From a virus (Duplodnaviria > Caudoviricetes): a DNA stretch of 39,255 bases. The stretch is from positions 1 to 39,255 of the IMG/VR virus record IMGVR_UViG_3300024286_000011; one strand, given 5' to 3'. How positions within the stretch are numbered: the first letter of the stretch is position 1; every line of letters begins with the position of its first letter. The translations under genes and the position numbers were made by a program. The notes below the pieces were generated by a model. The model was not told the DNA's origin and did no database searches. It saw nothing but the letters and a program-made list of their open reading frames with translations. Below, one piece after another: positions 1 through 22,464 of the stretch.

Positions 1-136
1 CGGCAGGGCAGTTAAGATGAGGAGCCGAGACACTGAACGAGAAAGGGGCAGCACCCTGCGCTTCGACCTTCACGAGCCTAGCCAAGTTGAAAGCGAATAT
101 GGCCAAAAGTAGAATCGCAAATATGGTTTTCTTCAT
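1..136 (-). CDS. Partial (5' end only) predicted secreted protein
   Basis: Hand translation MKKTIFAILLLAIFAFNLARLVKVEA-QGAAPFSF...; ATG at 136 overlaps the upstream TGA (ATGA); not in the ORF track. Confidence 0.75.
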   Translation of the reverse strand, partial: MKKTIFAILLLAIFAFNLARLVKVEAQGAAPFSFSVSAPHLNCPA

Positions 137-3015
137 TTCTTCACCTGCCCAGAAAGATTACTTATATGGCCTGCCATCTGCACGGCGGGAATCGCCGGTG
201 TGGGGTTTGTGGACGTAAATGTGAACCACAAGGCGTTAGCGGTCTTGTACGACTGCGCCCCTGTTAAGCCGTTTGCACCGAGGAAATTAGCCGAGACGGA
301 CTCGGTGCCACAACTCAAAGAACTTAACGGCGGCTGGCAAGAAACTGTAGGCACCACGTTATCCAGGCCGTTGTAGCAATTGTCGAGGTCAGTGCAAAGG
401 CCGAAAGGAGAGCTTTGGAAGTTGTGCGTGCCCCAATGCAAAAGTCCAGCTAGCTGGTAAGTTCCATTTACGCCCTGCGTCTGATTGACCATCCAGTTGA
501 GAAGGTTGTACCAGCCCTGCCCACGTGCAGCTTGCGTTGCGTAGCAGGGGAAGTTCGTATTGCAGTTCGCCGTTGTGATGGCGTTCTGCGTCGAAGAGTA
601 GGACGTATAGAGAAAGATCGGGCCGGTGTAATCTCTTGTAATGAATTTGTACTTGGCGCTGCCGTTTGGGTCAAACGACGGGTCAGCAAGCGTTGTGTAG
701 TAGACATCCGAATACAGCTCCATTGCTTGAGAGATTTCTCTGCGGCAGGGATTGAACCATACGCCGCACTGGTCTGGCCCTTGATAGATCATGTGCGGAG
801 CAAGAGTTTTTACGGCGGTACGGATTGGCTTCAGGTATTGAGCTGCGTATTGGGGCAACCAGCCGTCTAGGTCTGCGCCGACTGTCTGGTTGATATTGGC
901 GATGCCGAAGTCACTACCCGATTCCGTTCCACAAACGGGCTTTCCGATGCTCTCCCAGACTGCCGTTCCGTCCACTACATCGACTCCGGCAGTTGCAGAG
1001 AAGGCCGGAGCGCCGCCACTCGATGATGTTCCAGCCACGAGAACTACTTGCCATGTGCCCGTCGATACGTTGTGGATGACATCGCCAACGCCGTAGGCCG
1101 TTGAAGCGACCCGGTCAGGAAGGATTTTCAGGCAAACAGAATTCGTCCCGAAAATGCTTGTATTGGTTCCTGCTTCGTCTACGAAGCCGGTTCCCGAAGC
1201 CTTGTAGCCGCCCGTTGTGTAATTGACGGAGATTGTCGCGCCGGCAGGTAGAGGATGATTCGTTGTAATCGTGTAGGCTCCGCTTGAAAGCGTGACGTTT
1301 CCAGCGGAAACGCTTGACCCTCTACAGGTGAAGGTAACAGAGCCGCTGACCGTGGTCTGAGTGCCTGTGCAGGAACCAAACGCAGGCCAAGCCGGAGGGG
1401 TGCTGGCAGTAGTTCCTGCCGTTGTTACTTCTTCGATGTCGCTATTGGAGTCCGTGATGACGTAGTGCAGTGGATAGGCATTTGACCCGACAAACGCGCC
1501 AGCAGCTTTCCAGACAGACTGCCCTGCCGAGCCGCCGCAATTGTTGAGGGAATTCCAGCAACCAAAACCAAAGAAGACTGGCGAGCCACCCGAAGGAGTT
1601 AAATATAACTGCACACTTGTAGGTGTTACGTTTGAACCGGAAAAGGTTCCACTAAAGACTGTCGTCGCCCCGTTCCCTGTGGCAATGGTCTCTGCCGTGT
1701 GAACAGTTTCACTCGAACCCATCGTGGTATAGAGCGGCCAGCCAGCGGCGTTCATCGCAGCAAGCGAAGCGTACTTCGATTGAGAACCACAGCACAGATA
1801 ATCGGCCAAACGGCAAGGGGTGACCATGTTGCAGGTTGCTGGTGGAGTGCAGGTGGTGGAAGTTCCGTAAGGATTGTAGGTGCAAGGGGTTTTGGAATAA
1901 ACCACGGGGTCTTTGTAGAGGTAAGGACGAGCAGGACCATCAAACCGGAGAGGATTACTTGTAGCATTTCCAGCCTGGATTGGCGCGGAAATTAGAATTT
2001 GATAGGCCGGGTCATTATCATTCGCGCCTACATTTCCGTTCGTGTGAAAGTGCCATGTCGCGTTGGTGAGGGCATTCGTCCCCGTATCGTCTACCGTAAC
2101 CATGCCAAACCAGGGGCTTTTGGTAAATGAAGTAAAACTCGCGTTGAAGTTCTGAAGGAACGACTGGATGAAAGACCCGAAGTTCGGATTGTAATAATCG
2201 AGAAGCGCCCGTTTTGGGCCTGTGAGCGTGGAAGTTAGACTATAAGTTGTATTGATGAACGGCTGTGGAGCGAAAGCACCGAGGTCCACGCTCATGTAGG
2301 AAGTGGCGAACTGTTCCTGGTCGAATGGCTCTTTTGTATTGCTAGGACAAGCTCCATTCCCTGTTGGGTCATACTGTCCGGAAGAATTGTTACTGATTCC
2401 ATTGAAGTTGAGCGACAGCATTTGCGAATAGACGTTCGTCGCCATCGTACAGTTAGAGCCGCCGTATTTGGTCGTCAAGGTGCCAGCGGTAATAGTGCAA
2501 GCAGCGGTTGAAGCGCATGCAGCCCCAACTTCCACTTTGAACCTGTAATGATCAAGGAAAGAAACGAATACAGTGCGATTCTTCCCTGCCAGTGTGACGC
2601 CCTTCTTCACCCATTCATGTGCGGGCGTCACGGTACCAGAAACACCGGACTGTGTAAGCGAAGCAGGAGCCGTCATGGTCAGTGTGTTCGTTCCGAGATT
2701 GATACCCGTGATGATCGAAGCGCCTGCATCAGACCTTCCCGTATTGCAGGAAAAGTCCATCGAAGTACTCGTGCCCTTGACCATCATCGGTTCGTTTATG
2801 GCATATTTGGTTGCGTCTGCGACAACAGCCGTCTGCGTAGTTCCCGCTTGCGAGATGGTTGCGTTTTGTACGTCGGGATGGCCTGAGATAGTTGGGGCGG
2901 CGGAGCCGTCTGAATACGTTAGCAACCCGTTATCGCAGTCATAGGTCGCCTGTGCGCGGCAAGCCGGAGCAGCCAGAAGCAAAAGCCCTAGAATTACTTG
3001 CGTTGTCCGTTGCAT
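133..3015 (-). CDS. Signal-peptide-bearing Cys-rich protein; GH50/GH42-like TIM-barrel segments with inserted small beta modules (putative virion-associated glycan-binding or depolymerase protein)
   Basis: 960 aa; signal MQRTTQVILGLLLLAAPACRA-Q; motifs KYASLAAMNAAGW, AQYLKPIRTAVKTLAPHMIYQG, TQAARGQGWY...LAGLLHW; two CBM5/12-like modules (e.g. ASTAYGVGD...DGTAVW); about 27 Cys. Confidence 0.6.
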   Translation of the reverse strand: MQRTTQVILGLLLLAAPACRAQATYDCDNGLLTYSDGSAAPTISGHPDVQNATISQAGTTQTAVVADATKYAINEPMMVKGTSTSMDFSCNTGRSDAGASIITGINLGTNTLTMTAPASLTQSGVSGTVTPAHEWVKKGVTLAGKNRTVFVSFLDHYRFKVEVGAACASTAACTITAGTLTTKYGGSNCTMATNVYSQMLSLNFNGISNNSSGQYDPTGNGACPSNTKEPFDQEQFATSYMSVDLGAFAPQPFINTTYSLTSTLTGPKRALLDYYNPNFGSFIQSFLQNFNASFTSFTKSPWFGMVTVDDTGTNALTNATWHFHTNGNVGANDNDPAYQILISAPIQAGNATSNPLRFDGPARPYLYKDPVVYSKTPCTYNPYGTSTTCTPPATCNMVTPCRLADYLCCGSQSKYASLAAMNAAGWPLYTTMGSSETVHTAETIATGNGATTVFSGTFSGSNVTPTSVQLYLTPSGGSPVFFGFGCWNSLNNCGGSAGQSVWKAAGAFVGSNAYPLHYVITDSNSDIEEVTTAGTTASTPPAWPAFGSCTGTQTTVSGSVTFTCRGSSVSAGNVTLSSGAYTITTNHPLPAGATISVNYTTGGYKASGTGFVDEAGTNTSIFGTNSVCLKILPDRVASTAYGVGDVIHNVSTGTWQVVLVAGTSSSGGAPAFSATAGVDVVDGTAVWESIGKPVCGTESGSDFGIANINQTVGADLDGWLPQYAAQYLKPIRTAVKTLAPHMIYQGPDQCGVWFNPCRREISQAMELYSDVYYTTLADPSFDPNGSAKYKFITRDYTGPIFLYTSYSSTQNAITTANCNTNFPCYATQAARGQGWYNLLNWMVNQTQGVNGTYQLAGLLHWGTHNFQSSPFGLCTDLDNCYNGLDNVVPTVSCQPPLSSLSCGTESVSANFLGANGLTGAQSYKTANALWFTFTSTNPTPAIPAVQMAGHISNLSGQVKK

Positions 3016-6000
3016 GTCAGCGAGTAATTATCCGTTCCTGTCCCGGTCAGTACGACCGTCGTTGCCGTGAAAGTCCCTAAAGTGATTGCGTTCGCCGGTG
3101 TCGTTGTATCGCGCACGGTGCAGTTATAAGTCGATGCGGAGAAAAATCCGTTTCCTGGGAAGGTAACGGTTGCCGTGCCTGCCGCAAGGGCGCCTGTCTG
3201 GGTATGCGGAGTGCTTTCGATGATGGTTCCAGTACCGGAGTCGGAGATTGAGAGCGTATCGGCGGAATCAAATATATTGTCCGCACCGATGAAGGTCTTG
3301 GACATCGCGGCGTTGTTCACGTTGATGTCGATGCTTGTCGCGCCGTTGAAGCCGTCGAAGCTGCTGCCGATGACCTTATTCCATAAGCCGGTTGAGGAGT
3401 TCCCGATGTCGAGTACCACGCCAAAGGAACTAGCGTTGCCGTTTCCGTGACAATTGACAGTGACTTGATTGAAGTTTGCGGCCTTGCCGTTGGCATTGCC
3501 TTTGATGGTTACGCACGTCGCGTTCGCCGCCAGCCGACAAACGCCTGTAATGATGTTGTGGTTGAAGGGATTCTGCGAAGAGGAACCGGTGAAGCAGTTT
3601 AGTCCACCGCCCACGTTATCCGCGATGAAGTGGATGTGGTTATTCTCGCAGTCTACGCAATTGACTTCATTCTCATTCGCTCCGCCGTGAATCGTGACAT
3701 CCACCTTGAAGTCGTAAAAGTCTCCCAAGTTGAATGCAGCGGAAGAGGTTGCGTGACCATTTAGGTCAATGACATTCCCCGTAGCTTGACCGTTGTATGG
3801 TCCGAATATCTTGATGGCTCCAGCCCCGCCAGTTGTAGTCTGGCTAACCTGGTTCTCGTTTATCACCCAACCCTTATAAGCTGCATTCTGGACAGCCGCT
3901 TGGCCGTTGATGGAGATAGACGTAGCGCCGGAAGTCGTCTGCACGATTTTGTTCTTTATGATAGTCGTATCGGTGACGGTGCTGCCGGAAACCTGATTCG
4001 AGATGATGCAGCCAGTGGAAGCGGAAGGCCCGAAAGCTGCTACTCGGTTATTTTCAATCACTGTTCCTTGAATCGTACCGGAAGCGGTAGAAGCCGAGTT
4101 GATGCCGATACATGGGTCAACCTGCGTGCCTAGAAAAACGTTGTTCGTGATAAGCCCGCGAGTCGCAGAGCTTGTCAGATCGACCACAGGAAGCGCCGAA
4201 GAAACCGTTCCTGGATTTTGGTGGATTGAGTTCTTTACAAAGTCATCCGTACCTTGAATCTCCACAAACCGCGCCGTAGAGGTAAACGTTCCATCGTCAA
4301 GCGTGCAGCCGTCAATGCCTGATTCGTTTCCGGTGAACTTTAGACCGGAGGCTCCAGAGCCGCGTTGAATGATTGCTCCGAAGGTGGGGCAATAGATAAC
4401 AAATCCGCTATTAGCTAGAGTCGTCACGGAAGTCGGAAGTGTATACGTCCCAGGAGCTAAGCATTCTCTCGTGTTCGCTGTGCCGCTGGGAGTGTAAGCA
4501 CCAGGTGCAGGGTTGGTGCCGCAAGCATTCGTGGATGCGCCACCGCCACTGGAATTGATCGTTACGTCCGTGCTATTCGAGCCAGCATTGTCAGCAAATC
4601 CGAACGTTACGTTTGTTCCGGGGATGAGGTTCAAACGGCCCCGCTGCGTCTGTGAAGTTCCATTGTTGCCGACTAGCTGATAGAAGAGGCTCGCGCAGGG
4701 TAAACCCGTCGAAGAATTGAATGTAATAGCCTGACAGCCACCAATGAAAGCACTGAATGTCGGAATAAGATCGGCAAACCAGTTCGGCGCATTGTCCTGC
4801 GTCACGTCCGCCCGCCAGCCGGGAAGTACAGTTAGCGCAGAACCTCCATTGATAAGTTGTGTTGTAGGCGTGATTGTCAGATTGCCGGAATTGTAGTTTG
4901 GTGCCCTAAAGGGGAAGTTAGAAGCGAACGGAGCCGCAATCGCGGGAAGCGTTAGCGTAGCTGTTGTGCCACCGCTAAAACGAATGCTCGCAGCCCTATC
5001 TCCGGCCACGGCTGTGTAGTTTGTGCTTTGCGTATTTGTAAAAACGCCCAATTGTCCGACTTGAGGAGCTGTAGCGCCAGGGGAAGGATTATTCCAGAAC
5101 GGGATATAAAGACCGGCAAGCGCAGGAGGTCCGAATCCGGTAATCGTGTTAGATACCCCTACGCCAGAATAAGCGGCAATAGCGAACTGCGAACTAGGAA
5201 TGACGTTTGCCGAACCACCGGAATTGGAGCTTTTTAGTTCGCAATTTGTTCCATCGCAATCAAACAAATCAGAAACGCCGCTTGATAAGGTTACGGAAGA
5301 TACTGATCCACCGGCAATAAGAATCGTTCCGCTATCGGGCTGTACAGTTACAAGGTTAGGTCCACCTGTGATGTTCTGGATATGCCACGGCTGGCCGACG
5401 ACGGCGTGAGGGAGCGTGACAGTGAATGCTCCGCCTGTCGGGTCAGCCTTGATGTCGAAATCGTTGATTGTTGCGGTGTAATTTGATGTGACGGTAACTT
5501 GCGTACCGCCGATTCCACCGCCTCTAACCTGCGACCCCCAGAGCAATGTTTTCGACATGCCGCTAGGACCGCCACCAGCAGTCGTTGGTATGGCCTGAAA
5601 TAAGTTGCCAGTGGCTACAACGCTTGTCCCGGTGATGAGCGTGCCGCTGTTGACCGCTGTCCCATTGAAATACACGTAGTACCCAGCTGGAGGAGGAGAT
5701 GGGGCAGTCCAGGAAATCTGAACAGTTTGATTTCCGGTTGTAGTGGTTACATTTATTGGGATGCTTGGGCCGCTTTGTCCGCCGTTTGAATCCACTGCGG
5801 TTACGGCCACTGGGAATGTTCCCACGGGAAGAGTTCCGCCAGCCGTAGGCGCTCCGGCAGTTACGTTCGTTGGCGGGTCGCCCTGCACGATAATCACTCC
5901 TGGCGGGATGGCCCTGATAACGGAATTCGCCTCTATGACCTTGCCAACTTTTCGCACCGCCCCTGGCGCACCATAAACGGTGGAAAGTTGCGGAGCGACG

Positions 6001-8951
6001 TAGGAACTGCCAAAGTTGTATTGGTCATTCTCGCTTTCGCTGTAGAACGATACGTTGGAAGCGGCGGTTCCGATATTGACAGAGCCTCCTCCGGTTCCGC
6101 CTTGTTCCATGCTGCTCAGCCGAAGTCCGTCTAAGAGGGACACGCCAGCGGACATTTCCACTGAAGGGGCAAGCCCGCAAGTCGGGTCAGCCCTAACAAT
6201 TTGTTCAATCGACCAGTTAAACCAGTTGGAATTGTTGATGTTATGGAATCCGATGAGAGGGCCGCAACTGTTTTCCGAGAATATGTCCGAAAACAACCAC
6301 GGCGACCCCATCTGAGCGACGGCGAAGTTAGGTATCGCATCGTTATCAATTCCGATGGCTTGCGACATCTGAAAAATAGTGTGAAGGAACTTACCTTCTC
6401 CGGGTGCCGCATTAGCTACGCTTGAACCCATGAGTCGGAAGCCTGGAGGAGCAAAGTACTTGCTGGAAGTTGTTGCAGAAAAAACATTTCTCTCAAACAG
6501 GTAGTGGAAACCTACTCCGCGAAGAACCATTGGAGCTGAACCGGAATCGTTCGCGCCAACGCTGATAAAAGAATCGTGAATGTTTTCTGTAGTGCAATTC
6601 TGGTCGCACAGCACAATCCATTGACCCGGATTAGTTCCGCTCGAATTGGAGATGAACATATGGTCGATTTCGTTCTGGTTTCCCAGGAACATTACCGGGT
6701 AGGATGAGCCGCCCCAACTTCCGTAATTTGTCGTCGCAAAAGAAGGTGTGCCGTGATTGTTAGGGGCACCGCCAATGATGCGCGTCGACAAAGTGTTTTT
6801 GGTTGGCTGCGTAGCAAATACTCCACCGCTCACTGTGTACGTTACGTTCCCGTTGTTGCTAACAGCGGGCATCACGTACGGGAAATTCAGATAGAAAAGG
6901 TTCCCTGCCGCATTGGGAACAAAAACCTCTCCGCCTTTAACGGCGAGCGCCGCATTGTGCGCCGCAAGAAAAGCCGCCGTATTGTCATGCAGAGCCGCTA
7001 CTCCGGAAATGGTATTTGAAGCCGCATTCGCTACGACGATTGACGTTCCCGGCGCACCGGAAACGATGGTTGTGGCTAAAGCCTGATTCGTAGCCGAGGC
7101 TGGGGCCGTTGTGGGGACTTCCGGCATTCCCGTAAGAGTTGGAGTACCCCAGTTGTAATCATCGTAGAAAGGCTCTGATCCTTGTGCGATTCCCACGAGA
7201 TTGTACGAACCAGACCCATTATCTTGGCGGTAGATCAAATACCGCATGGCGGTCGCTTGTGAAGTGAAATAAACGAAGTTATGGGCCGGAACTTCCACAG
7301 TTCCAGTACTACAAGTTGAAGTTATGTCAGGGCGGCTTTTTGATGGGGTATCAATCGTCAGTGTATTAGCCGATGGCGTTGTTTTCACCATCCATACGCC
7401 ATTCATGTTCGAGTTGCAACCAGCTATCTTTATTGGAGAATTGAGTTCAAAGTTGTGTGTCGCTGCTGTGGTAATGGAAATCGTACCTGAAACAAGCGAC
7501 GCCGTGGTGATGTTCACGGGATTTGTTTGAAATGTGGCCGCCCCGGTAGTTATCGTAGTCGCAGGGCTGGCGGCCGTTACGCCTAGACTAAAATCCTCCG
7601 CCGCCACCTTATAGCTTCTCGTGGTGCTGCCGTTGATAATTCCCTTGGGCACCACGCTAGAAGGTGCTGTCGGAGTCGTCAGCGAAGTAGCCGCTCCGCA
7701 TTGGTGAAGAACTATTCCATCTCCATTGATGAAATCTAAAGCACTCGCCAGTGTTACGGACGTTGAACTGGCGCAGTTAGCGGTAGTTGTTAAAGCTGGA
7801 AATGCTAAAGCTCTAGCGCCTTGACGTGTGACGTCAAAACTTGGATTCGGTCCTTTTCCGTGAACATCATCATCAACGTTGAGCGTTGTTCCAGTTTCGC
7901 AGGCATTCGATGCTCCGAAAGAGCCGGAAGCGTTTTTTTGCAAGCAGTTCAAGGGATTAGCCGGAGTTCCGCCTCCACCGCCGCCCGTTCCGCCACCAAT
8001 GCCAATCCAGGTAGTTCCTGTCCATGAATACAAAATACGATTGCAGTGCGCGGCTGTCGTATCGAAGGTAAATCCTTGCGGGTTGCTGACATTTCCGGGG
8101 AAGGCGAAAGTTCTTCCGCCGACACCATCCTGACAAGCGTTCAAAATTAATTGCGTTCCAGGCCGTCCTGTAGTTGTGAAAATAGAAGAGGTTACGTTCC
8201 CCGTAAGCGTTATGTCAAAAATGGCTGCTCTGGAATTGGATAGCGTCGGAGTAGCTGAAAATGTGACGGGATAGTAGTCGAAAGCGCCATCCGGTATATT
8301 GTCCAGTTGATGCCAATTCGTTCCGTTATAAACAAAAGTTACTTTGTTATTGGCGAGCGGCAAAATCCTGAAAGCGAAATCGTCTGCAAAGATGAAATTC
8401 CCCGGCCACGCCACCGTATGACCGCCAGTGGCATCTTGATCGAAAGCGAAACGAAGCAAGTTCCCGTTAACAGGAGTGCCGGTAATCGTTATCGCCGTGA
8501 TGTTGGCTGTCAGCGTCGTGGAATAGCTGGCATTCTGGCTCGCAGCGAAAGACGGTGTGGCAGAAAAGGCCACGGAACTGTTGGGCAGGCCGCCAGCCGA
8601 AGCGCAAGAAGCTCCTACGATGCAAGGCAGAATGATTTGGAATGGACCGTGAGCAATGACGTTCAGGCCGGTTACGGTGTATGAGTAGGAACCTGGTACG
8701 GCCCAAAAACCAAAGTTCCCGAAAGCATCTGTGACGATAGGATTGGACTGCGGAATCGTAAGAGCTTGGTCTTGGTAGATATTCACCGTAGGGGAGCAAG
8801 GAACGCCGGGAGCATTTGCCGCGCAGATAGTGATTTGTGCGCCGCCAACAGGTCTCCCCGTAGAGCCTAGAATTATGGCTTGGTAATTGCTGCCTTGCCC
8901 ATAAGCGAGGGCAGGAAAGAAAAGCGCCAGTGCTAGAAACAAACGTTTCAT
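2994..8951 (-). CDS. Giant tailspike/tail-fibre-like protein with signal peptide, head-binding-like domain and two beta-helix regions
   Basis: 1985 aa, T/S/G/N-rich; MKRLFLALALFFPALAYG-Q; IYQDQALTIPQSNPIVTDAFGNFGFWAVPGSY; FDVTRQGA...DNTAAFLAA...GGEVFVP beta-helix cap; second region after CLAPGTY; ATGA-coupled to the upstream gene. Confidence 0.75.
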   Translation of the reverse strand: MKRLFLALALFFPALAYGQGSNYQAIILGSTGRPVGGAQITICAANAPGVPCSPTVNIYQDQALTIPQSNPIVTDAFGNFGFWAVPGSYSYTVTGLNVIAHGPFQIILPCIVGASCASAGGLPNSSVAFSATPSFAASQNASYSTTLTANITAITITGTPVNGNLLRFAFDQDATGGHTVAWPGNFIFADDFAFRILPLANNKVTFVYNGTNWHQLDNIPDGAFDYYPVTFSATPTLSNSRAAIFDITLTGNVTSSIFTTTGRPGTQLILNACQDGVGGRTFAFPGNVSNPQGFTFDTTAAHCNRILYSWTGTTWIGIGGGTGGGGGGTPANPLNCLQKNASGSFGASNACETGTTLNVDDDVHGKGPNPSFDVTRQGARALAFPALTTTANCASSTSVTLASALDFINGDGIVLHQCGAATSLTTPTAPSSVVPKGIINGSTTRSYKVAAEDFSLGVTAASPATTITTGAATFQTNPVNITTASLVSGTISITTAATHNFELNSPIKIAGCNSNMNGVWMVKTTPSANTLTIDTPSKSRPDITSTCSTGTVEVPAHNFVYFTSQATAMRYLIYRQDNGSGSYNLVGIAQGSEPFYDDYNWGTPTLTGMPEVPTTAPASATNQALATTIVSGAPGTSIVVANAASNTISGVAALHDNTAAFLAAHNAALAVKGGEVFVPNAAGNLFYLNFPYVMPAVSNNGNVTYTVSGGVFATQPTKNTLSTRIIGGAPNNHGTPSFATTNYGSWGGSSYPVMFLGNQNEIDHMFISNSSGTNPGQWIVLCDQNCTTENIHDSFISVGANDSGSAPMVLRGVGFHYLFERNVFSATTSSKYFAPPGFRLMGSSVANAAPGEGKFLHTIFQMSQAIGIDNDAIPNFAVAQMGSPWLFSDIFSENSCGPLIGFHNINNSNWFNWSIEQIVRADPTCGLAPSVEMSAGVSLLDGLRLSSMEQGGTGGGSVNIGTAASNVSFYSESENDQYNFGSSYVAPQLSTVYGAPGAVRKVGKVIEANSVIRAIPPGVIIVQGDPPTNVTAGAPTAGGTLPVGTFPVAVTAVDSNGGQSGPSIPINVTTTTGNQTVQISWTAPSPPPAGYYVYFNGTAVNSGTLITGTSVVATGNLFQAIPTTAGGGPSGMSKTLLWGSQVRGGGIGGTQVTVTSNYTATINDFDIKADPTGGAFTVTLPHAVVGQPWHIQNITGGPNLVTVQPDSGTILIAGGSVSSVTLSSGVSDLFDCDGTNCELKSSNSGGSANVIPSSQFAIAAYSGVGVSNTITGFGPPALAGLYIPFWNNPSPGATAPQVGQLGVFTNTQSTNYTAVAGDRAASIRFSGGTTATLTLPAIAAPFASNFPFRAPNYNSGNLTITPTTQLINGGSALTVLPGWRADVTQDNAPNWFADLIPTFSAFIGGCQAITFNSSTGLPCASLFYQLVGNNGTSQTQRGRLNLIPGTNVTFGFADNAGSNSTDVTINSSGGGASTNACGTNPAPGAYTPSGTANTRECLAPGTYTLPTSVTTLANSGFVIYCPTFGAIIQRGSGASGLKFTGNESGIDGCTLDDGTFTSTARFVEIQGTDDFVKNSIHQNPGTVSSALPVVDLTSSATRGLITNNVFLGTQVDPCIGINSASTASGTIQGTVIENNRVAAFGPSASTGCIISNQVSGSTVTDTTIIKNKIVQTTSGATSISINGQAAVQNAAYKGWVINENQVSQTTTGGAGAIKIFGPYNGQATGNVIDLNGHATSSAAFNLGDFYDFKVDVTIHGGANENEVNCVDCENNHIHFIADNVGGGLNCFTGSSSQNPFNHNIITGVCRLAANATCVTIKGNANGKAANFNQVTVNCHGNGNASSFGVVLDIGNSSTGLWNKVIGSSFDGFNGATSIDINVNNAAMSKTFIGADNIFDSADTLSISDSGTGTIIESTPHTQTGALAAGTATVTFPGNGFFSASTYNCTVRDTTTPANAITLGTFTATTVVLTGTGTDNYSLTCNGQRK
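8001..8573 (-). repeat. Tandem duplicated ~95-aa tail-fibre module
   Basis: VAFSATPSF...TLTANIT...QDATGGHTVAWPGN...YNGTNW versus VTFSATPTL...TLTGNVT...QDGVGGRTFAFPGN...WTGTTW. Confidence 0.8.
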
Positions 8952-10309
8952 TGTGAGAGCCGCCTATTTAATTCGTTTTGTGCCAACTTGTCTCCAAATC
9001 TCGCCAACGTCTTTAGCTTTTCTGTTGAAACTTGAGTGAAATCACCCGCTCGCTTCAAATCCGCCGCGCTTGGCTCTTCGCCCGGTACTGCAATCTTCTT
9101 CATGCGCGAAATCAAATCTTGCGGGTCCGAAGAAACATTGCTCCGCGTCGTGCCTTGTTCTGGTGCTGCTGTTGGGTCGAGCGGACTGACGCGAGGCTGG
9201 AATGGGTCGCCGCGAAGATTCGGCGGCAATCTGGTGGGCAACTTAGAGAATAGGCCGGGATTCTCAGGGCTGCCGAGTTCCGGCTGAACTGGTGTGGCCG
9301 ATACTTCAGGGATTGTCGGAGAAAACGGGTCGCTGCGCAAGTTCTTTGGCAAGCGTGGCGATAACTTACTCATTGGTCCGGGAAAGTCAGGACTACCAAA
9401 AACATCCATGTGTGAAGGCGATTCCCATTCCGGGACCGTTTCTCCACTTGGTGGCGTGAATGGGTCGCCGTGATATTGCGGAGGCAGTCTATTTGGTAGT
9501 TTTGAGAACGGGCCGGGATTCTCTGGACTGCCAAGTTCTGGCGGAACGGGTGTTGCTTCGACCATCGGAGGAGCAAATGGGTCGCCACGCATTGCTGCTG
9601 GCAACCGCGTAGACAGTTTGCTCATTGGCCCTGGAAAATCAGGGCTTCCATATATGTTTGTATGTTGCGGCGATTCCCATGTCGGAGGCTCTACAGCAGG
9701 CGGCGGGAATAACGCGGAAGCTCCAGCCTTCACTAATTTCCCTGGTATGGTTGTTGGATGTTCCAGCGCATCTCCGATGCTGGCCAGTTTCGGATTAAGA
9801 GCGCCATCTTCATAAGCTAGTCTTGAAACACCAGACCGTAGCCCCCTGAATGCTCCAGCCCCGCCTAAACCTCCTAGCGTGCCTCCGATAAACTGTCCAT
9901 AATCTTCTGAACCTTCTGGTGCTAAAGCTCCCCCGATGGAACTGCCAATCTTTGAGCCAATGAGCGCCTTAGCTGAGGCTGCTGGGAAATAGGCCATCGA
10001 AGCGTTTGTGACCGCCGATGGATTGTTGTTTGCCCATTTGACAGCCCTGTTTTTCCTTTGCTGCAACTCTGCCTGCTGTTCTTCGTACGGAGCTGTAGCT
10101 CGTTTTTCGAGATATTGGGCTGCTTGCATCCGTGAATTTGCTTCCATCCCTTCTCCTGTTTTAAGGTCAGGATTGGAGCGCGGCAAATCCGAATATTCTG
10201 GATGTTTCGCCAAAACGTTCTTTTCGAGCGTAGCGTCGTCCATGTCGTCATACGCTCCAGGAAACTTGGAACGAAGAAGCTGCGCTAGGGTTAGTTGCGT
10301 TACGCTCAT
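8948..10309 (-). CDS. Putative internal virion (ejection) protein with Pro-rich repeats
   Basis: 453 aa; N-terminal LRSKFPGAYDDMDDATLEKNVLAKHPEY; Gly/Ala-rich hydrophobic middle; position after the tail genes. Confidence 0.6.
   Translation of the reverse strand: MSVTQLTLAQLLRSKFPGAYDDMDDATLEKNVLAKHPEYSDLPRSNPDLKTGEGMEANSRMQAAQYLEKRATAPYEEQQAELQQRKNRAVKWANNNPSAVTNASMAYFPAASAKALIGSKIGSSIGGALAPEGSEDYGQFIGGTLGGLGGAGAFRGLRSGVSRLAYEDGALNPKLASIGDALEHPTTIPGKLVKAGASALFPPPAVEPPTWESPQHTNIYGSPDFPGPMSKLSTRLPAAMRGDPFAPPMVEATPVPPELGSPENPGPFSKLPNRLPPQYHGDPFTPPSGETVPEWESPSHMDVFGSPDFPGPMSKLSPRLPKNLRSDPFSPTIPEVSATPVQPELGSPENPGLFSKLPTRLPPNLRGDPFQPRVSPLDPTAAPEQGTTRSNVSSDPQDLISRMKKIAVPGEEPSAADLKRAGDFTQVSTEKLKTLARFGDKLAQNELNRRLSQ
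9195..9690 (-). repeat. Four-unit ABAB proline-rich coding repeat
   Basis: Four copies of GSP(DF/EN)PG(P/L)(M/F)SKLxxRLPxxx(R/H)(G/S)DPFxP, preceded alternately by WESPxH or ATPVxPEL. Confidence 0.9.
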
Positions 10310-11727
10310 CTAATCCCCAATGGGTCATTTGTCTTGGCGGTAGTTCCACTGAGCGACGGATGCGGAGTAATTTCTTCCATGCCGCGCACCACAGGCACTC
10401 TGTTTCTCAGTCGGTCGATGTTTGCCTGAAACTTCTTAGCCTGTCCAATTGCATACTTAGAATCTACTGATGCGCCGCTGGGGAGTGTCTGAAATAGAGC
10501 ATTACCCTGAATTTCGCTGGTGCGCGAGCCGCCAGTAATCTCTTTTGGAAGTCCGAGAGCCGATTCCTTTAGGGAAAGTACGGATTGAATGTAATTCTTG
10601 GTTTTATCCGATGCTCCGTTAAGCATCGTGCTTTTCACAAGGTCATTCCACATTCCTGGTTCCGCATGGGAAAGAACCTTGGAGATAATGGCTCGCTGCG
10701 TTCCTCCTTGGTCTAGTGCATCGGCAGACGAAACCACATCATTTAACTTGCTCTGCATGTCGTTCAGGACAACGGCGTGCGTTTTGGCGTCGTTCAAATC
10801 TTTGTCGGATGCCTTGATTACGTTGCTGTAGCCGGAACCCGGAGCCATTGCCTCAGACTTCGGTACTATGTGCGCCTTCCCCTGTTTGTCGTAAGCCATG
10901 ACTGGTTCCATATCATGCTCGCCAGCGCCCTGCGGAGTCGGCTTTGTGTCCTGTATGCTCTGTGCCAACTTCACCCTCGCCTCGAATGCCGTGTATGGTT
11001 TCTTTGTTCTGGGGTTAATCGTTTTAAGTAAATCCCCCATTGCCTGCTCATCAGGAGTTAAAGTCTTCGCAGCATCTGGCTTAACGTCTTGCATTGCCTG
11101 AGCGCGTTTAACGGAAGCCTCAAAATGCGTGAACGGTTTTCCAGTCATTGGATTCACTTGCTTCATCAAATCCCCAACATCCTGCTCCTCGCTAGTCGGC
11201 TTGGGCGCCATTGCAATCTCTGGTTTTTGCTCGAAATAATCAGCCTGAGCATTGTGTAAACGATTAGTGATAGCCGAAGTCTGTTGCGCACGCTCCTGAT
11301 TTATGGCGTCTTCCGTTAGGCCGTATTGCTTTGTGAGTCCTGCAATTTGCCGCTGTCTCTGGTAGTCTCCGCTGATGATACTGCCAAGTTGAGGATTCCT
11401 CTGGGACATGATTGCGCCGAGAACGTGTCTGATCGTACTGCCCACACCCCCTTCTGGAGGGTTGTAGGCTTCACTGAGCCTTGAGCTGATGTCTCTCAGT
11501 TGTGGCTGGTAAATGTCTCGCGCCACGTCGGGCTGGCCATTGGTGTTGGGATTAAAAGCAGGTGAAAGAGATACTCCGCTACGCGCATTGGCTGGAGCCG
11601 GAGCTGGTCGCATCGCATCGTCAGGAGCGGCATTCTCGTCGCCGGAGTAGGAAGATGTTCTACTCGTCCACGGGCTGAATGCTCCTGCGAAGGTCTGCGG
11701 ATTCAGAATTTTCCTGATGATCGCCAT
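10306..11727 (-). CDS. Putative internal virion (ejection/DNA transfer) protein
   Basis: 473 aa, helical, Cys-free, C-terminal NDPLGIR; internal duplicated ~45-aa unit. Confidence 0.6.
   Translation of the reverse strand: MAIIRKILNPQTFAGAFSPWTSRTSSYSGDENAAPDDAMRPAPAPANARSGVSLSPAFNPNTNGQPDVARDIYQPQLRDISSRLSEAYNPPEGGVGSTIRHVLGAIMSQRNPQLGSIISGDYQRQRQIAGLTKQYGLTEDAINQERAQQTSAITNRLHNAQADYFEQKPEIAMAPKPTSEEQDVGDLMKQVNPMTGKPFTHFEASVKRAQAMQDVKPDAAKTLTPDEQAMGDLLKTINPRTKKPYTAFEARVKLAQSIQDTKPTPQGAGEHDMEPVMAYDKQGKAHIVPKSEAMAPGSGYSNVIKASDKDLNDAKTHAVVLNDMQSKLNDVVSSADALDQGGTQRAIISKVLSHAEPGMWNDLVKSTMLNGASDKTKNYIQSVLSLKESALGLPKEITGGSRTSEIQGNALFQTLPSGASVDSKYAIGQAKKFQANIDRLRNRVPVVRGMEEITPHPSLSGTTAKTNDPLGIR
10938..11205 (-). 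repeat. Two-copy ~45-aa coding repeat
   Basis: TSEEQDVGDLMKQVNPMTGKPFTHFEA...AQAMQDVKP versus TPDEQAMGDLLKTINPRTKKPYTAFEA...AQSIQDTKP. Confidence 0.85.
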
Positions 11728-11730
11728 AGA

Positions 11731-12000
11731 TTAGATGAGAAACTTCGCAACGTTGCCCAGCCCCCCCATGAATCCGCCGCTCCCTGAAAATCCTGACAGC
11801 CCTTGCAATAGCCTGTTCCCTCCAGGCTGACCATTCTTTATGCCACCAAGAAACATCTGCCGTGCGCCTGGCCTGCCCGGTTGTTGTTGTCCGGCATCAA
11901 GCATACTGGGCATGTCTCCGTATTGCCCCATGTCGATTCCTTCCTCATCTGGGTAACCCTGTCCGGGCCGTTTCATATTCATAAATGAATTAAGCATCAT
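11731..12000 (-). CDS. Small Gly/Met/Gln-rich protein, probable minor ejection protein
   Basis: 89 aa; GGAG upstream; amphipathic Gly-rich C-terminus; operon position. Confidence 0.6.
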   Translation of the reverse strand: MMLNSFMNMKRPGQGYPDEEGIDMGQYGDMPSMLDAGQQQPGRPGARQMFLGGIKNGQPGGNRLLQGLSGFSGSGGFMGGLGNVAKFLI

Positions 12001-12014
12001 TAGGACATCTCCGG

Positions 12015-12089
12015 TGCTACAATAGGAAAAGCCCCGTTACGCTGTAAACGCAACGAGGCCAAACACAACGCCCTGATGAGGAGAGCGTC
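12015..12089 (+). promoter_or_regulatory. Extended -10 promoter and structured leader of the inserted HNH gene
   Basis: TGcTACAAT 12015-12023; imperfect hairpin 12031-12059; acgc-cct/agg-gcgt hairpin 12068-12088 covering AGGAG. Confidence 0.5.
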
Positions 12090-12623
12090 ATGCCGGAAAC
12101 AATTCTCGTTCACTTCTGTACTACCTGCAAGCAAGAAAAACCTATTTCTGAGTTTTACGAAAGCACATTGCGAGTTGGCAGCCATCGGTGCAAGGAATGC
12201 AACCGTATATATCAGCGTTTTTACCACAATGATGTTTATTACCCAAAACACAAAGACAGAAGAAGGCGCAGGGCGCGGGACAAGAAGACTTATGACAACG
12301 AAAGGAATAAGCGACCTGATGTCTTGATGAAAAGGCACGCCAGAATTTCTGTGATTCATGCCATAGAAAGAGGAGAAATGAAAAGGTCGCCGCATTGCGA
12401 AAGATGCGGAGTTATTTGCAAGACAAACGCCCATCATCACAAAGGATATGAAGATGAGAATCGCTTCGACGTGCAGTGGTTGTGTTCCCCTTGTCATTAT
12501 TTCATTCATCGTAAAAATTCCTATCTGCCGGTCAATAACCCACCCAAACCGCTACCAAATGAACCACCAAAATTAGACATAAAGGAATCACCGAAACCTG
12601 GGTGTGATTTTGTTGTCCCGTAA
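12090..12623 (+). CDS. HNH-like endonuclease with N-terminal Zn finger (antisense insertion)
   Basis: CTTCKQEKPISEFY...CKEC; CERCG...AHHHKGY...VQWLCSPCHYFIH; AGGAG RBS. Confidence 0.8.
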   Translation: MPETILVHFCTTCKQEKPISEFYESTLRVGSHRCKECNRIYQRFYHNDVYYPKHKDRRRRRARDKKTYDNERNKRPDVLMKRHARISVIHAIERGEMKRSPHCERCGVICKTNAHHHKGYEDENRFDVQWLCSPCHYFIHRKNSYLPVNNPPKPLPNEPPKLDIKESPKPGCDFVVP

Positions 12624-13123
12624 AGATTATTTGCGGCGCCAATTAACTGGTTCTGTTGACTATTTAAACTATTGAGAAAGCTACTATCGATGCCATACAA
12701 CCCTGCAATTCCCTGCAAACCCATCATTTTCCTGCGCAGCGTTTCGTCGGCAAATGACTTCTGGTTATCGAGATTCTGCTGAGCAAGGTCTCTGGCCTTG
12801 CTTCGCGTCGCTTCTCCGAGAAATGAACCAAACCCTGCTGAGTTGTTGGTACGCGCCATGCGCCGCGTGGCCGCATCCGTTGCTCCGCCGTAGGCACCTT
12901 GAATCGCTCCAAGAGTTCCTTGCTCTATCCCTGACTTTTCCTGCGGGGAATAGCCGGAATTAAGCAGACTTTGGAAACCAGGCATGAGAGAGCCAAATTC
13001 CGAGCCTCTCTGTCTTGACGTTGCTCCAGCTTGCGCACCGAGGTTTCCCGCCTGCGAGGTGATTCCCTGTTGCACGCCCTTGCGTGTTCCGAGATTTCCG
13101 AATGTGGGTCCAAGAAAACTCAT
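12521..13123 (-). CDS. Putative internal virion (ejection/pilot-like) protein
   Basis: 200 aa, G/S/Q/A-rich with a Gly-rich C-terminus; ATGA coupling; position. Confidence 0.6.
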   Translation of the reverse strand: MSFLGPTFGNLGTRKGVQQGITSQAGNLGAQAGATSRQRGSEFGSLMPGFQSLLNSGYSPQEKSGIEQGTLGAIQGAYGGATDAATRRMARTNNSAGFGSFLGEATRSKARDLAQQNLDNQKSFADETLRRKMMGLQGIAGLYGIDSSFLNSLNSQQNQLIGAANNLYGTTKSHPGFGDSFMSNFGGSFGSGLGGLLTGR

Positions 13124-13650
13124 AGTGGTGATGGCCTCGGCGGTCCTGGGAGCCTAGTTTTACCGTAACCATATCCAGGAATCTGTGATTCTCCGCTTCC
13201 CTGCGAAGGAGATGGTGCCGGACCAGGAGAAACAGTAGATAGGTTTCCTGGCGTCACTGGAGTAGGAGGATTGCCGAATACAACTCGCTCACTAAGTCCG
13301 CCTAGTTTCGTGCTCTTGTACCAACGCCAATAAGTCGTAAGCCCGGCAAGATTGCTTGTCCGGTAATTTCTGGCTGGCCCTAGCTGTATGGTATGCGCAT
13401 CAACAAAAGAGGGCACTTGCCCATATTCCAGAAAATAATCCTCGCCTGCTTTCGGATGCTTGTCGATGATTTGCACGTCTATAATCCCATTCGCTCCAGT
13501 TACGGAAATTCCACCGGCTGCAACCGGCTCAGCCCCTCCAAGCTGCGCTGTAATGACATTGATATGCTGCTGCATTTTCACGAGGTCTTCATAAACTCCT
13601 GGATGAGTCTCACGCAAAGCGACGATGTTATTGAGCGCCAGAAGTTTCAT
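13120..13650 (-). CDS. Hypothetical virion protein
   Basis: Start moved to ATG 13650 (ATGA overlap with the upstream stop); short coiled coil, beta domain, Pro-rich tail. Confidence 0.65.
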   Translation of the reverse strand: MKLLALNNIVALRETHPGVYEDLVKMQQHINVITAQLGGAEPVAAGGISVTGANGIIDVQIIDKHPKAGEDYFLEYGQVPSFVDAHTIQLGPARNYRTSNLAGLTTYWRWYKSTKLGGLSERVVFGNPPTPVTPGNLSTVSPGPAPSPSQGSGESQIPGYGYGKTRLPGPPRPSPL

Positions 13651-16546: not shown

Positions 16547-16891
16547 TTACCTCAGATCGAATTGTGCCGTGAAGCTAATCAAATCTCCGGTAGCCGCAGC
16601 AGGATAAGCGCCAGCAGCAAGCTCGGCAACGGCTCCAATAAAAGCCCTGATTTTTCCGTTGGCTTGTGTCGTTCCAGGCACCCACGTGTAGTTGTTGAGG
16701 GCCTGTGCTGCTGTACCAATCTGACTTTCAAACTGAACAGCAAAGGGTACAAGCGAAGATTGAATGCCGAGTCCAGCAAATGTTAAAGTGTCGCCGCCTT
16801 GAACATAGCTGCCGGATAGTGCAATCGTTCCGTAGACCCACAACTGTTTCCCATCGTATTTCTTTTTCGTGATTGTTGCTGCTGCCGCCAT
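16547..16891 (-). CDS. Small virion structural (decoration-like) protein
   Basis: 114 aa, beta-rich, GTIALSGSYVQGG; AAGGAG RBS. Confidence 0.55.
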   Translation of the reverse strand: MAAAATITKKKYDGKQLWVYGTIALSGSYVQGGDTLTFAGLGIQSSLVPFAVQFESQIGTAAQALNNYTWVPGTTQANGKIRAFIGAVAELAAGAYPAAATGDLISFTAQFDLR

Positions 16892-16936: not shown

Positions 16937-17896
16937 CTACAAGATTCTATTTGTTCCCCAGTAGCGGTTTGAGCCGCGCCCGGAGTTGTTTGCCCTGCGC
17001 CTGCCCACAAGATAGTTCCTTGCGTGCGCTTGCAGATTGAGCAATTCCTTCATGTCCTCGTTGAACATGCCGAGGAAGATACTGGCGTTCTGCGAACCTC
17101 GTGCGTTCGAAGCCAGAAATGCCGTGTACGTCGCAATCGCATCCTGCGAGCCGCGAATCGTGAATTGGCCATTTCCATCTGAAATATCAGGAAAAGCCAC
17201 GAAGTAGCGAAGTCTAATGTCCATCGCATTGACGGAACCTGGAAAGAAAAGGCCGTCCTCATACCAAGCAAAGACTCCATTTCTCTGCCTTACGGAAGAA
17301 TCGGAAAAACTCGGAAGGACATTCACTTGTCCCATCGGGGCATAAGCTAGTCCCGAACCGTTAATTCTTTCCGAAAGATCGCGTGGACCTAGAAAATCGG
17401 CTGGCAATGGAGGATTGGTCGTATCAAGTAGCTGCGTCGCATTGGCAGGAAGCGTCAGAAAGACTTCCGTATTCATCGTCTTGCTGCCGTTTTCCTGCAA
17501 TCTGCTCTGCACTTTGCGATAAGCCTTGTTAGCCAGAGGAAGAAGAACGGCGTCTGTCGCCCAATCTCCTTGTACTATAGGAGAAATGATTCCGTTACCG
17601 CTCGTGACGTTAGATCCCGTGCTTGTGTAAGTGAACTGCGTCGGACTGAGAATCGCCAGAACGGTTTGCGTTCCGTTGAAGCTAATGTCCGACACGCTTT
17701 GCACCTGAATGATGCTTCCCTGCTGTAGATTGTGCGGGGAATTGGTAGTCATCGTGACGAGACTGCCCAGAGTGCGAACTGCTCCAGTAGGAGGAATCGT
17801 CACAGTGAACGGAATATCCGCATCATTCAGCATGGAGCGAGTGAGTTGAAAGACCTCGCTACCGGATGGCCAAGCGGTGGTGGCTAGTGCGGGAAT
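16937..17896 (-). CDS. Head-tail connector/adaptor protein; probable AUU start
   Basis: The frame stays open upstream of ATG 17833 to ATT at 17896-17894, which has GGAGG 6 nt upstream and overlaps the previous TAA; helical N- and C-termini around a beta core; FNGT insert. Confidence 0.6.
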   Translation of the reverse strand: MPALATTAWPSGSEVFQLTRSMLNDADIPFTVTIPPTGAVRTLGSLVTMTTNSPHNLQQGSIIQVQSVSDISFNGTQTVLAILSPTQFTYTSTGSNVTSGNGIISPIVQGDWATDAVLLPLANKAYRKVQSRLQENGSKTMNTEVFLTLPANATQLLDTTNPPLPADFLGPRDLSERINGSGLAYAPMGQVNVLPSFSDSSVRQRNGVFAWYEDGLFFPGSVNAMDIRLRYFVAFPDISDGNGQFTIRGSQDAIATYTAFLASNARGSQNASIFLGMFNEDMKELLNLQAHARNYLVGRRRANNSGRGSNRYWGTNRIL

Positions 17897-19258: not shown

Positions 19259-19822
19259 ATGCCCCTCAAAGACTTGGTTGCCCGCAAGCTGTACATGCAG
19301 CAATATCGCGCTAAATGGACTCCTGAACAAAGGGCGGCTCATAACAAAAAATGCAGCGAATACCAGAAGAAAAACCGCATTAAGAAAAACGCCTATCAAC
19401 GCGAGTGGATTGCCAAGAACAGAGCCAAGAAATCCGCCTATTCCATGAAAGGTTACAAAAAGTGGAAAGAGCGAGACCCGCAGGCAGTTAAAGAAATGGA
19501 GCGCCGATACAGGAATAAAAATAGACTCAAGATTAGGCACCATAACCACATAAGAAAGGCAAGAAAGAAAGGAAATGGAGGCTCCCACACTCAGATTGAG
19601 TGGATTCAAAAAGTAGAATCTCTTGGGTGGAAATGTTTCTATTGTTCCGTGATCCTTACTGTTCTGACTCTTACCAAAGACCATTTTATTCCTCTGGGGA
19701 GGGGCGGCAGGAACGATTTGGAAAATATCGTTCCTGCCTGTCTCCATTGCAATTGCTCTAAGAGCGCGATGACTGGCGATGAATTTATCCAGTATCGGAA
19801 AAGTAAAACTACTCTTCAGTAA
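19259..19822 (+). CDS. HNH homing endonuclease (antisense insertion after the capsid gene)
   Basis: Basic helical N-terminus; CFYC...LTKDHFIPLGRGGRNDLENIVPACLHCNCSK; ATG 19259 preferred as start. Confidence 0.9.
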   Translation: MPLKDLVARKLYMQQYRAKWTPEQRAAHNKKCSEYQKKNRIKKNAYQREWIAKNRAKKSAYSMKGYKKWKERDPQAVKEMERRYRNKNRLKIRHHNHIRKARKKGNGGSHTQIEWIQKVESLGWKCFYCSVILTVLTLTKDHFIPLGRGGRNDLENIVPACLHCNCSKSAMTGDEFIQYRKSKTTLQ

Positions 19823-21108: not shown

Positions 21109-21139
21109 TAAATCTCCTTTTTGGCATCCCCGCTAAAAA

Positions 21140-22414: not shown

Positions 22415-22464
22415 TCATTGTCTCCTTAGAGCTGCGTCATTTAACGCTGACTAGGCGATTTGCT

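What the first reader, a model, noticed from the sequence alone, without database searches (positions are those of the whole stretch)
1..8951. Tail spike/fibre-like proteins that all carry Sec signal peptides: candidate periplasmic virion-appendage assembly system
Seen: three consecutive, coupled or overlapping genes in the tail-fibre position (starts 8951, 3015, 136), plus the spike-like gene at 27224, begin with a basic n-region, a hydrophobic core and an A-x-A-like cleavage site. In the 1985-aa protein the signal is followed directly by an NPIVTDAFG...F...GSY domain resembling podovirus head-binding modules. The three complete proteins are rich in closely spaced Cys, whereas the scaffold and ejection proteins have none and the capsid has one. 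Known: tailed virions assemble in the reducing cytoplasm, and their receptor-binding proteins normally lack signal peptides. Inference: these proteins are exported, disulfide-folded in the periplasm and docked onto particles only at lysis. This would delay infectivity and allow the phage to use secreted-type glycan-binding folds. The alternative is host-surface (lysogenic conversion) proteins.
Basis: partly seen in the sequence, partly recalled or inferred. Interest (0 to 1): 0.88.

Follow-up and report, generated by a model that had tools for sequence, protein, structure and literature searches.

The report
Phage tailspikes carrying export signals
This short-tailed phage, likely of Acidobacteria, starts its spike-like genes with predicted bacterial export signals placed directly before a predicted tail-docking domain, so these host-gripping parts likely fold outside the cytoplasm and would join the virus particle only when the cell bursts, a route I found in no paper on tailed phages.

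Summary
Observation confirmed. Four genes (starts 8951, 3015, 136, 27224) begin with Sec-type leaders by my own heuristic (SignalP unavailable); none of 16 other structural-region and packaging proteins does. Behind the leader of the 1985-aa protein lies a 91-aa domain whose best sequence and Foldseek matches among solved structures are tailspike head-binding domains (Pam1, Pan3; P22 and Sf6 by fold). The statistics are modest, and generic transthyretin-like domains tie on VIA-align Z.

A profile of the mature domain alone found 132 of 142 assessable relatives with a hydrophobic core and a -3/-1 site before Gln (control 4 of 2380). Mature chains have even Cys counts (34, 26, 22; 77 of 88 relatives). 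No conserved internal start was found. The gene sits among head-tail genes, and 0 of 10 viral relatives had a tyrosine integrase. Cultured podophage Tunturi 1 has the same arrangement; Tunturi 3 and 4 do not in the genes examined.

Best reading (0.62): Sec export, periplasmic disulfide folding, docking at lysis. Export, cleavage and presence in virions are untested, and a leaderless lectin-like protein may also bind the host. The scan has noted this before on other DNA (81 notes, at least 79 genomes).

The parts
2994..8951 (-). g1985: 1985-aa tailspike/fibre-like preprotein (leader, head-binding-like domain, two tail-fibre repeats, predicted C-terminal beta-helix); 34 Cys in the mature chain
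8898..8951 (-). Predicted Sec/SPI leader of g1985, 18 aa, predicted cleavage AYG|Q
   Evidence: sequence
8622..8894 (-). N-terminal docking-like domain (residues 20-110) with a conserved Cys pair (C43, C52); P22/Sf6/Pam1/Pan3 head-binding-like fold predicted
7986..8606 (-). Two ~100-aa repeats matching PHROG tail-fibre families (phrog_9017 E 9.6e-7, two stretches); in G003 this region matches the start of the second SP-bearing fibre (36% identity)
2994..4514 (-). C-terminal region (residues 1480-1985), right-handed beta-helix by language-model features (score 0.89, a lead only)
133..3015 (-). g960: 960-aa preprotein, leader 21 aa (2953-3015), 26 Cys in the mature chain; glycoside-hydrolase-like (GH42/GH5) by features (0.77, a lead only); no docking domain detected
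2..136 (-). Truncated gene, 45 aa seen, with a predicted 26-aa leader (59-136); function not assignable
24864..27224 (-). g786: spike-like preprotein, leader 18 aa (27171-27224), own N-terminal domain with a Cys pair, 22 Cys; lies before the portal here, while a homolog with an 85% identical N-terminal part lies in the tail cluster of G001
16937..17896 (-). SU10-type adaptor (PF24175, E 1.1e-6), leaderless, 0 Cys; likely ATT start at 17896; candidate docking partner
13647..16544 (-). Nozzle/tail-hub-like protein by position and size (965 aa, leaderless, 4 Cys); candidate docking partner
   Evidence: weak virion-protein PHROG hit; identity inferred
16547..16891 (-). g114: leaderless 114-aa protein with a predicted fibre-tip lectin-like fold (AP22 gp53, Z 7.4); a cytoplasmically made appendage candidate
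8948..13123 (-). Ejection-like genes (Cys-free, leaderless) directly upstream of g1985
   Evidence: role inferred from position and composition
19816..24846 (-). Major capsid (phrog_14242, E 1.5e-9), scaffold-like and portal-like genes, all leaderless

Best explanation
The phage encodes its spike-like proteins with export-type leaders and even cysteine counts while its head and tail core have no leaders, so the spikes are likely sent through the host Sec pathway, cleaved to an N-terminal Gln, folded with disulfides in the periplasm, and would dock by a predicted P22/Pam1-type head-binding domain onto spike-less particles only when lysis mixes the two compartments. Steps: (1) late co-expression with head-tail genes (shown by overlapping genes; transcription inferred); (2) Sec export and SPI cleavage (predicted from sequence and conservation, not measured); (3) disulfide pairing by host Dsb enzymes (inferred from parity and a conserved Cys pair); (4) retention as soluble periplasmic protein, since no membrane helix, lipobox or C-terminal anchor was found (trimer state inferred from the family); (5) docking on adaptor/nozzle at or after lysis (inferred: P22 tailspikes are added last and attach to spike-less heads in vitro, recalled from established knowledge); (6) g960 and g786 attach through g1985 or their own N-terminal domains, or are released as free glycan-degrading helpers (open).
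For: Leaders on 4 genes and 0 of 16 core proteins. 132 of 142 assessable hits of a leader-free profile have an h-region plus -3/-1 site before Gln, against 4 of 2380 internal control positions. Leader identity 26% vs domain 68%. Domain: best PDB sequence hit is the Pam1 head-binding domain 7eeq (E 0.0021); top three Foldseek rows are Pan3 and Pam1 tail spikes (E 0.008-0.046); VIA Z 7.4 Pam1, 6.7 P22, 6.5 Pan3 and Sf6; the named top viral models are tailspike, tail-fibre or pectate-lyase-type phage proteins. Even Cys: 3 of 3 in the window, 12 of 13 in G001-G005, 77 of 88 (90% dereplication) and 17 of 21 (45%) against nozzle 32 of 53, portal 20 of 45, capsid 14 of 23, terminase 6 of 12. The gene changes place but stays inside the morphogenesis module; 50 of 50 full-length host-genome loci have it beside a nozzle gene. 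No tyrosine integrase in 10 viral relatives, no serine recombinase in 5. Plaque-forming podophage Tunturi 1 has a leader on gp12, directly after its tail protein gp11, with a related domain (E 1.9e-5 by profile; 5e-15 via P0012), and on gp13, 14, 16 and 17. No conserved internal start codon.
Against: No direct evidence of export, cleavage or presence in particles. The fold is shared with secreted host domains: a Bacteroides protein fragment ranks first in VIA (Z 7.7), and CnaB and carboxypeptidase-D domains tie within 1 Z unit; no Foldseek PDB match reached E 0.001. The phage has leaderless candidates for host binding (g114 lectin-like fold; insertions in the 965-aa nozzle), so exported proteins are not the only possible receptor binders. 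g960 lacks a detectable docking domain and has no N-terminal homolog in the held loci. Most of the 150 profile hits belong to one subgroup, largely a chromosomally fixed element of Acidiferrales, so they are not independent. Tunturi 3 (gp1-28) and Tunturi 4 (18 head-tail genes tested) have leaderless, Cys-poor tail proteins, so export is not required to infect these hosts. The window is about 86% complete and lacks its lysis end.
Confidence: 0.62

Rival explanations
1. The proteins are exported but stay free of the particle. They are periplasmic or released glycanases and lectins, derived from tailspikes, that strip the host capsule during infection (aiding release or blocking superinfection), while g114 and the nozzle do the binding.
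For: g960 looks like a glycoside hydrolase without a docking domain. Relatives add GDSL, LamG and HYDIN-type Ig domains typical of secreted proteins. A leaderless lectin-like protein exists. This may hold for some of the four genes even if g1985 docks.
Against: The head-binding-like domain is far more conserved (68% mean identity) than the rest of the protein, which varies from about 530 to 1970 aa. That is expected of a part that must fit the particle. The adaptor is of the SU10 type, which carries a fibre-dock domain in SU10 (PMC9509320 passages), and no leaderless long fibre was seen in G001-G005.
Confidence: 0.2
2. Lysogenic-conversion or host-surface adhesins: fibre proteins expressed from an integrated or domesticated copy and displayed on the cell, like Bdellovibrio MAT fibres.
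For: A related module sits at one chromosomal site in Acidiferrales (5 of 5 genomes read; capsid gene in 63 of 101 family genomes). MAT fibres are phage-like fibres with a signal peptide (PMC10769870 passage). The Tunturi paper says its isolates' genomes hold putative integrases and recombinases.
Against: Genes overlap late structural genes. No integrase in 10 viral relatives or among the 106 annotated CDS of Tunturi 1. No anchor found. In host genomes the gene was never seen without head-tail genes in 50 full-length loci.
Confidence: 0.1
3. The virion uses a cytoplasmic pool: a leaderless isoform from an internal start, slow export, or an uncleaved leader that tethers spikes or assembling tails to the inner membrane.
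For: The phage appears to use a non-canonical ATT start for its adaptor, so unusual starts are possible; ATA/ATT codons lie at mature residues 26-27.
Against: No ATG/GTG/TTG between the leader and codon 56 of g1985. Codons at the Ile column vary freely among 17 homologs, with no conserved Shine-Dalgarno site. The -3/-1 site and Gln are conserved, the h-regions are too short for a membrane helix (19-residue hydropathy at most 1.43), and Cys parity implies an oxidising compartment.
Confidence: 0.08

Closest known systems
Podovirus tailspikes with an N-terminal head-binding domain: P22 gp9, Sf6 gp14, cyanophages Pam1 (7EEQ) and Pan3 (9VYG)
   Same: Predicted fold of residues 20-110 and the best sequence hit among solved structures; beta-helix-like body; podovirus adaptor/nozzle/ejection layout.
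   Different: Those spikes are leaderless and fold in the cytoplasm (recalled); here a conserved leader precedes the domain, the domain has a conserved Cys pair, and the chains have even Cys counts. Trimer state and docking are not shown.
Filamentous (Ff) phage pIII/pVIII (recalled, no call)
   Same: Virion proteins made with Sec-type leaders; pIII folds with disulfides in the periplasm.
   Different: Ff proteins stay membrane-anchored and are assembled during extrusion without lysis; here the proteins have no anchor and belong to a lytic tailed phage.
Bdellovibrio bacteriovorus MAT fibres (PMC10769870; two passages read)
   Same: Phage-like fibres with a signal peptide followed by a conserved beta-rich domain.
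   Different: MATs are host chromosomal genes with S74 chaperone domains; no S74 hit here, and the genes lie inside a virion module.
Sec-exported and SAR endolysins (fOg44 Lys44, P1 Lyz; PMC6116005 passages)
   Same: Tailed phages using the host Sec system to park a late protein outside the cytoplasm until lysis.
   Different: These are lysis enzymes, not particle components.
Tunturiibacter phage Tunturi 1 (PP887698; PMC11924767 passages)
   Same: Cultured podophage of Acidobacteriota with leaders on gp12, 13, 14, 16 and 17, even Cys counts on the four large ones (20, 10, 20, 32), and a related N-terminal domain on gp12.
   Different: Core proteins show no detectable similarity to the window's. 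The passages read do not discuss signal peptides, and 'mass spectrometry' has 0 occurrences in the main text.

Membership tests
P22/Pam1-type tailspike | N-terminal head-binding domain fold | tested here: met
   Model pLDDT 80; Pam1 Z 7.4, rmsd 3.2, 79 aligned; P22 Z 6.7, rmsd 3.5, 85 aligned; Foldseek top rows Pan3 and Pam1; HMM E 0.0021 to 7eeq. Moderate strength; generic transthyretin-like domains tie.
P22/Pam1-type tailspike | Right-handed beta-helix receptor-binding or enzymatic body | tested here: inconclusive
   Atlas features 0.89 for residues 1480-1985; no Pfam hit; not folded.
P22/Pam1-type tailspike | Homotrimer docked at the adaptor-nozzle junction | not testable with these tools
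   Needs cryo-EM or biochemistry.
P22/Pam1-type tailspike | Leaderless synthesis and cytoplasmic folding | tested here: not met
   Conserved leader, no internal start. So it works like such a spike but is not a plain member.
Sec/SPI preprotein | Basic n-region, uncharged h-region, small residues at -3/-1 | tested here: met
   (own heuristic, not SignalP).
Sec/SPI preprotein | No lipobox, no twin-arginine motif | tested here: met
   neither pattern found in the first 35 residues of the three complete proteins.
Sec/SPI preprotein | Actual translocation and cleavage | not testable with these tools
   Needs PhoA fusions or N-terminal proteomics.
Lysogenic-conversion (moron) gene | Temperate phage with an integrase | tested here: inconclusive
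   None in 37 window proteins (genome 86% complete); 0 of 10 relatives for PF00589, 7 of them at least 90% complete; 0 of 5 for PF07508. Plasmid-type lysogeny was not tested.
Lysogenic-conversion (moron) gene | Own transcription unit apart from the late operon | tested here: inconclusive
   Three genes overlap their upstream neighbours by 4-22 nt, which argues for co-translation; promoters were not scanned and no RNA data were available.
Bdellovibrio MAT fibre | S74 chaperone domain and host chromosomal location | tested here: not met
   No S74 hit; the window is a virus record.

The most novel reading that the evidence does not exclude
A widespread lineage of tailed phages of Acidobacteria builds its particle in two compartments: head and tail core in the cytoplasm, a branched set of disulfide-locked spikes and glycanases in the periplasm, and the two snap together only at lysis. 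The lysis step thus completes assembly, and the phage can recruit modules from the host's secreted proteins as receptor binders.
Probability: 0.55. Interest if true: 0.88.

Novelty: new variant of a known kind. Interest (0 to 1): 0.74.

Why it matters
Tailed phages are held to finish assembly in the cytoplasm before lysis. If these spikes mature in the periplasm and attach at lysis, that rule has a large exception: the domain profile has 1640 representatives at E 1e-10 or better (only the best 150 were inspected). Annotation pipelines that read a signal peptide as 'not a virion protein' would then miss the receptor-binding genes of many phages of an abundant soil phylum, and would count some spike glycanases as auxiliary metabolic genes. 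The question is directly testable, because the cultured phage Tunturi 1 has the arrangement and Tunturi 3, isolated on the same host strain, is a leaderless control in the genes examined.

Tried and rejected
Complex prediction of adaptor (2 copies) with the N-terminal domain (3 copies): no verdict, score 0.00 against a mark of 0.32; not counted for or against.

Pfam and PHROG scans of the whole proteins gave no family for g1985, g960 or g786; only slices hit. PF26209, listed for homologs, is not in the library and stayed unnamed. The PDB sequence search with the g960 C-terminus found nothing useful, and its homolog search gave only itself and one relative.

tblastn of the N-terminal domain, capsid, nozzle and g786 domain against cultured phages: no match. 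Profile comparison of the g786 domain with leaderless Tunturi 3 gp14/gp15 was weak (probability 32%), and with the g1985 domain negligible (4.7%); neither is used.

Artefact readings rejected: chance leaders (control 4 of 2380); mis-called starts (homologs begin at the same leader); a general host-composition effect (Tunturi 3 and 4 tail proteins are leaderless and Cys-poor).

Literature: ten searches. None of the listings showed a paper on signal-peptide-bearing tail appendages of tailed phages. The library lacks most subscription papers, and I did not open supplements; the Tunturi annotation tables could bear on this.
Full report
What the window is. It is a 39,255-nt linear virus record, estimated 86% complete. 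The minus strand carries a short-tailed-phage module: large terminase (phrog_979), portal-like, scaffold-like, major capsid (phrog_14242), SU10-type adaptor (PF24175), a 965-aa nozzle-like gene and Cys-free ejection-like genes, then g1985, g960 and a gene cut off by the window end. g786 lies between terminase and portal. The plus strand carries RecT and small early genes. The lysis end is missing; in near-complete relatives a holin-like gene, an endolysin (SLT or M15 family) and lipoprotein-like genes follow the same cluster. The host is inferred: 72 of the 80 host-genome loci kept (of 143 found) with a close form of the g1985 N-terminal domain have Acidobacteriota titles, and the nearest capsids in a sample of 401 genomes from the class of one of those hosts are at most 44% identical (57 genomes with a match).

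The observation. All four leaders are present at the stated starts. My heuristic (basic n-region, uncharged 8-residue core, small -3/-1 residues; not SignalP) flags the three complete genes and none of 16 other structural-region and packaging proteins. It flags 7 of 161 ORFs in six frames, four of them these genes. Each predicted cut leaves Gln at +1. There is no lipobox, twin-arginine motif, membrane-length helix or C-terminal anchor.

Is the leader under selection? I aligned only the mature domain behind the g1985 leader (25 sequences) and searched 1.84 billion representatives: 5839 hits at E 0.001 and 1640 at 1e-10, of which the best 150 were returned. Eight had too little upstream sequence. 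Of the other 142, 137 had a hydrophobic core and 132 had that core plus a -3/-1 site before Gln; random internal positions of the same proteins gave 4 of 2380. Among 127 hits the leaders share 26% identity against 68% for the domain, yet the core positions stay uncharged and -3/-1 stay small. That is how working signal peptides evolve. Many hits belong to one subgroup and are not independent. In the window's closer group, 11 of 13 database homologs and 28 of 33 distinct locus sequences passed the heuristic; four of the five misses show a leader by eye with a non-ATG or distant start, and one is an internal match. No conserved internal start could give a leaderless form.

What lies behind the leader. 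The domain profile's best hit among solved structures is the Pam1 tailspike head-binding domain (7eeq, E 0.0021), with Pan3 spikes lower (E 0.2). The model (pLDDT 80) ranks Pan3 and Pam1 first in Foldseek (E 0.008-0.046; none under 0.001). VIA-align gives Pam1 Z 7.4, P22 6.7, Pan3 and Sf6 6.5, tied with a Bacteroides fragment (7.7) and with CnaB and carboxypeptidase-D domains. The named top viral models are tailspike, tail-fibre or pectate-lyase-type proteins. The following repeats hit PHROG tail-fibre families, and the C-terminus resembles a beta-helix (0.89, lead only). g960 resembles GH42/GH5 hydrolases (0.77, lead only) and has no detected docking domain.

Disulfides. Mature Cys counts are 34, 26 and 22, and even in 12 of 13 leader-bearing proteins of 300 aa or more in five near-complete relatives (2.2% Cys against 0-0.9% in capsid, scaffold, adaptor, nozzle, g114, g177 and ejection proteins, and 1.5% in portal). 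Among complete homologs of 450 aa or more, 77 of 88 are even at 90% dereplication and 17 of 21 at 45%; nozzle, portal, capsid and terminase give 32 of 53, 20 of 45, 14 of 23 and 6 of 12. The docking-like domain has exactly two Cys in 142 of 150 hits.

Virion part or cargo? In G001-G005 two to three large leader-bearing proteins follow the last ejection-like gene. In other relatives the gene sits between adaptor and nozzle, before the adaptor, or straight after the nozzle. All 50 full-length host loci have it beside a nozzle gene. No tyrosine integrase was found in 10 viral relatives and no serine recombinase in 5. The cultured, plaque-forming podophage Tunturi 1 has leaders on gp12, 13, 14, 16 and 17. 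Its gp12 follows the tail protein and shares the domain (profile E 1.9e-5 among 53 proteins; 5e-15 through P0012; hhalign probability 50%), and none of its 106 annotated genes is named integrase. The paper does state that the Tunturi genomes contain putative integrases and recombinases. Tunturi 3 (gp1-28) and Tunturi 4 (18 genes tested) are leaderless, so the trait is lineage-specific. Against exclusivity: g114 is leaderless and has a predicted fibre-tip lectin-like fold (AP22 gp53, Z 7.4, rmsd 2.6, 89 aligned), so the particle may have a cytoplasmically made binder too.

Mechanism. Most likely (0.62) the spikes are exported by Sec, cut by signal peptidase I, oxidised by host Dsb enzymes, held soluble in the periplasm, and docked on the adaptor/nozzle junction when lysis opens both membranes. 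Fibre docking at that junction is described for A4 and SU10 (PMC12002296 and PMC9509320, passages read); late, spontaneous attachment of P22 tailspikes is recalled knowledge. Rivals are free exported glycanases (0.20), host-surface or lysogenic adhesins (0.10) and a cytoplasmic or membrane-tethered pool (0.08). The roles may be split among the four genes.

Novelty. The parts are known kinds: a P22/Pam1-like spike and a Sec leader. Their combination in a tailed phage appeared in none of ten literature searches; papers were seen as listings and abstract openings, or as passages for PMC12002296, PMC9509320, PMC11924767, PMC10769870, PMC6116005 and PMC7824862; no supplements were opened. Earlier scan notes report the same trait in at least 79 other genomes. 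They are not independent proof, but they pointed me to cultured Acidobacteria phages and the MAT paper, and my reading and wording match theirs. I rate it a new variant of a known kind, interest 0.74; if two-compartment assembly is confirmed it would deserve about 0.88.

Noticed in passing
L077-L166 (host genomes G011-G015 and relatives): A related podovirus head-tail module with the same leader-bearing spike sits at one chromosomal site, with a DsbA-like gene and NAD synthase downstream, in 5 of 5 genomes read; its capsid gene is in 63 of 101 family genomes, mostly as one copy. I noticed no integrase-like gene in the translated flanks (read by eye, not scanned). It looks like a domesticated, GTA-like element; noted before as e1-8534095.
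   Followed up: partly
L158:4381-5313 and equivalents: The gene bordering that element is a DsbA/Thioredoxin_4 protein (E 1.3e-26), a suggestive neighbour for a disulfide-rich exported spike, but it faces the other way and is coupled to NAD synthase.
   Followed up: partly
window 17894-17896 (-): The adaptor likely starts at ATT, overlapping the upstream stop and following GGAGG; relatives start with Met at the same place.
   Followed up: partly
window 16547-16891 (-): g114 is a stand-alone predicted fibre-tip lectin-like domain (pLDDT 92), conserved beside the adaptor across the family, with a weak look-alike in Tunturi 1 gp10 (E 0.035).
   Followed up: partly
window 16937-17896, 13647-16544 and g1985 residues ~480-550: A ~70-aa module occurs in the adaptor and in the nozzles of relatives, and g1985 hits the same PHROG family as the adaptor module (phrog_9998); the Acidiferrales-type adaptors lack it.
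   Followed up: no
window 22465-24846 and 17896-18570 (-): The portal carries an inserted CxxC...CxxC zinc-ribbon-like stretch, and g224 ends in a double zinc ribbon (weak Pfam hits); g214 and g224 are conserved across the family with no assigned role.
   Followed up: no
window 8948-10309 (-): The last ejection-like protein has Pro-rich internal repeats and is only patchily similar to its counterparts in close relatives.
   Followed up: no
window 12000-12509 and 19226-19747: Gaps in the late operon hold only poor minus-strand ORFs; homing-endonuclease-like insertions on the opposite strand are possible, and relatives have insertions after the capsid gene.
   Followed up: no
window 30919-31334 (-): Two small ORFs before the small-terminase-like gene have hydrophobic N-termini that pass the signal heuristic.
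   Followed up: no
L025 and L026 (G003): Record G003 repeats the nozzle-to-ejection block at both ends, so it is probably an over-assembled circular genome.
   Followed up: no
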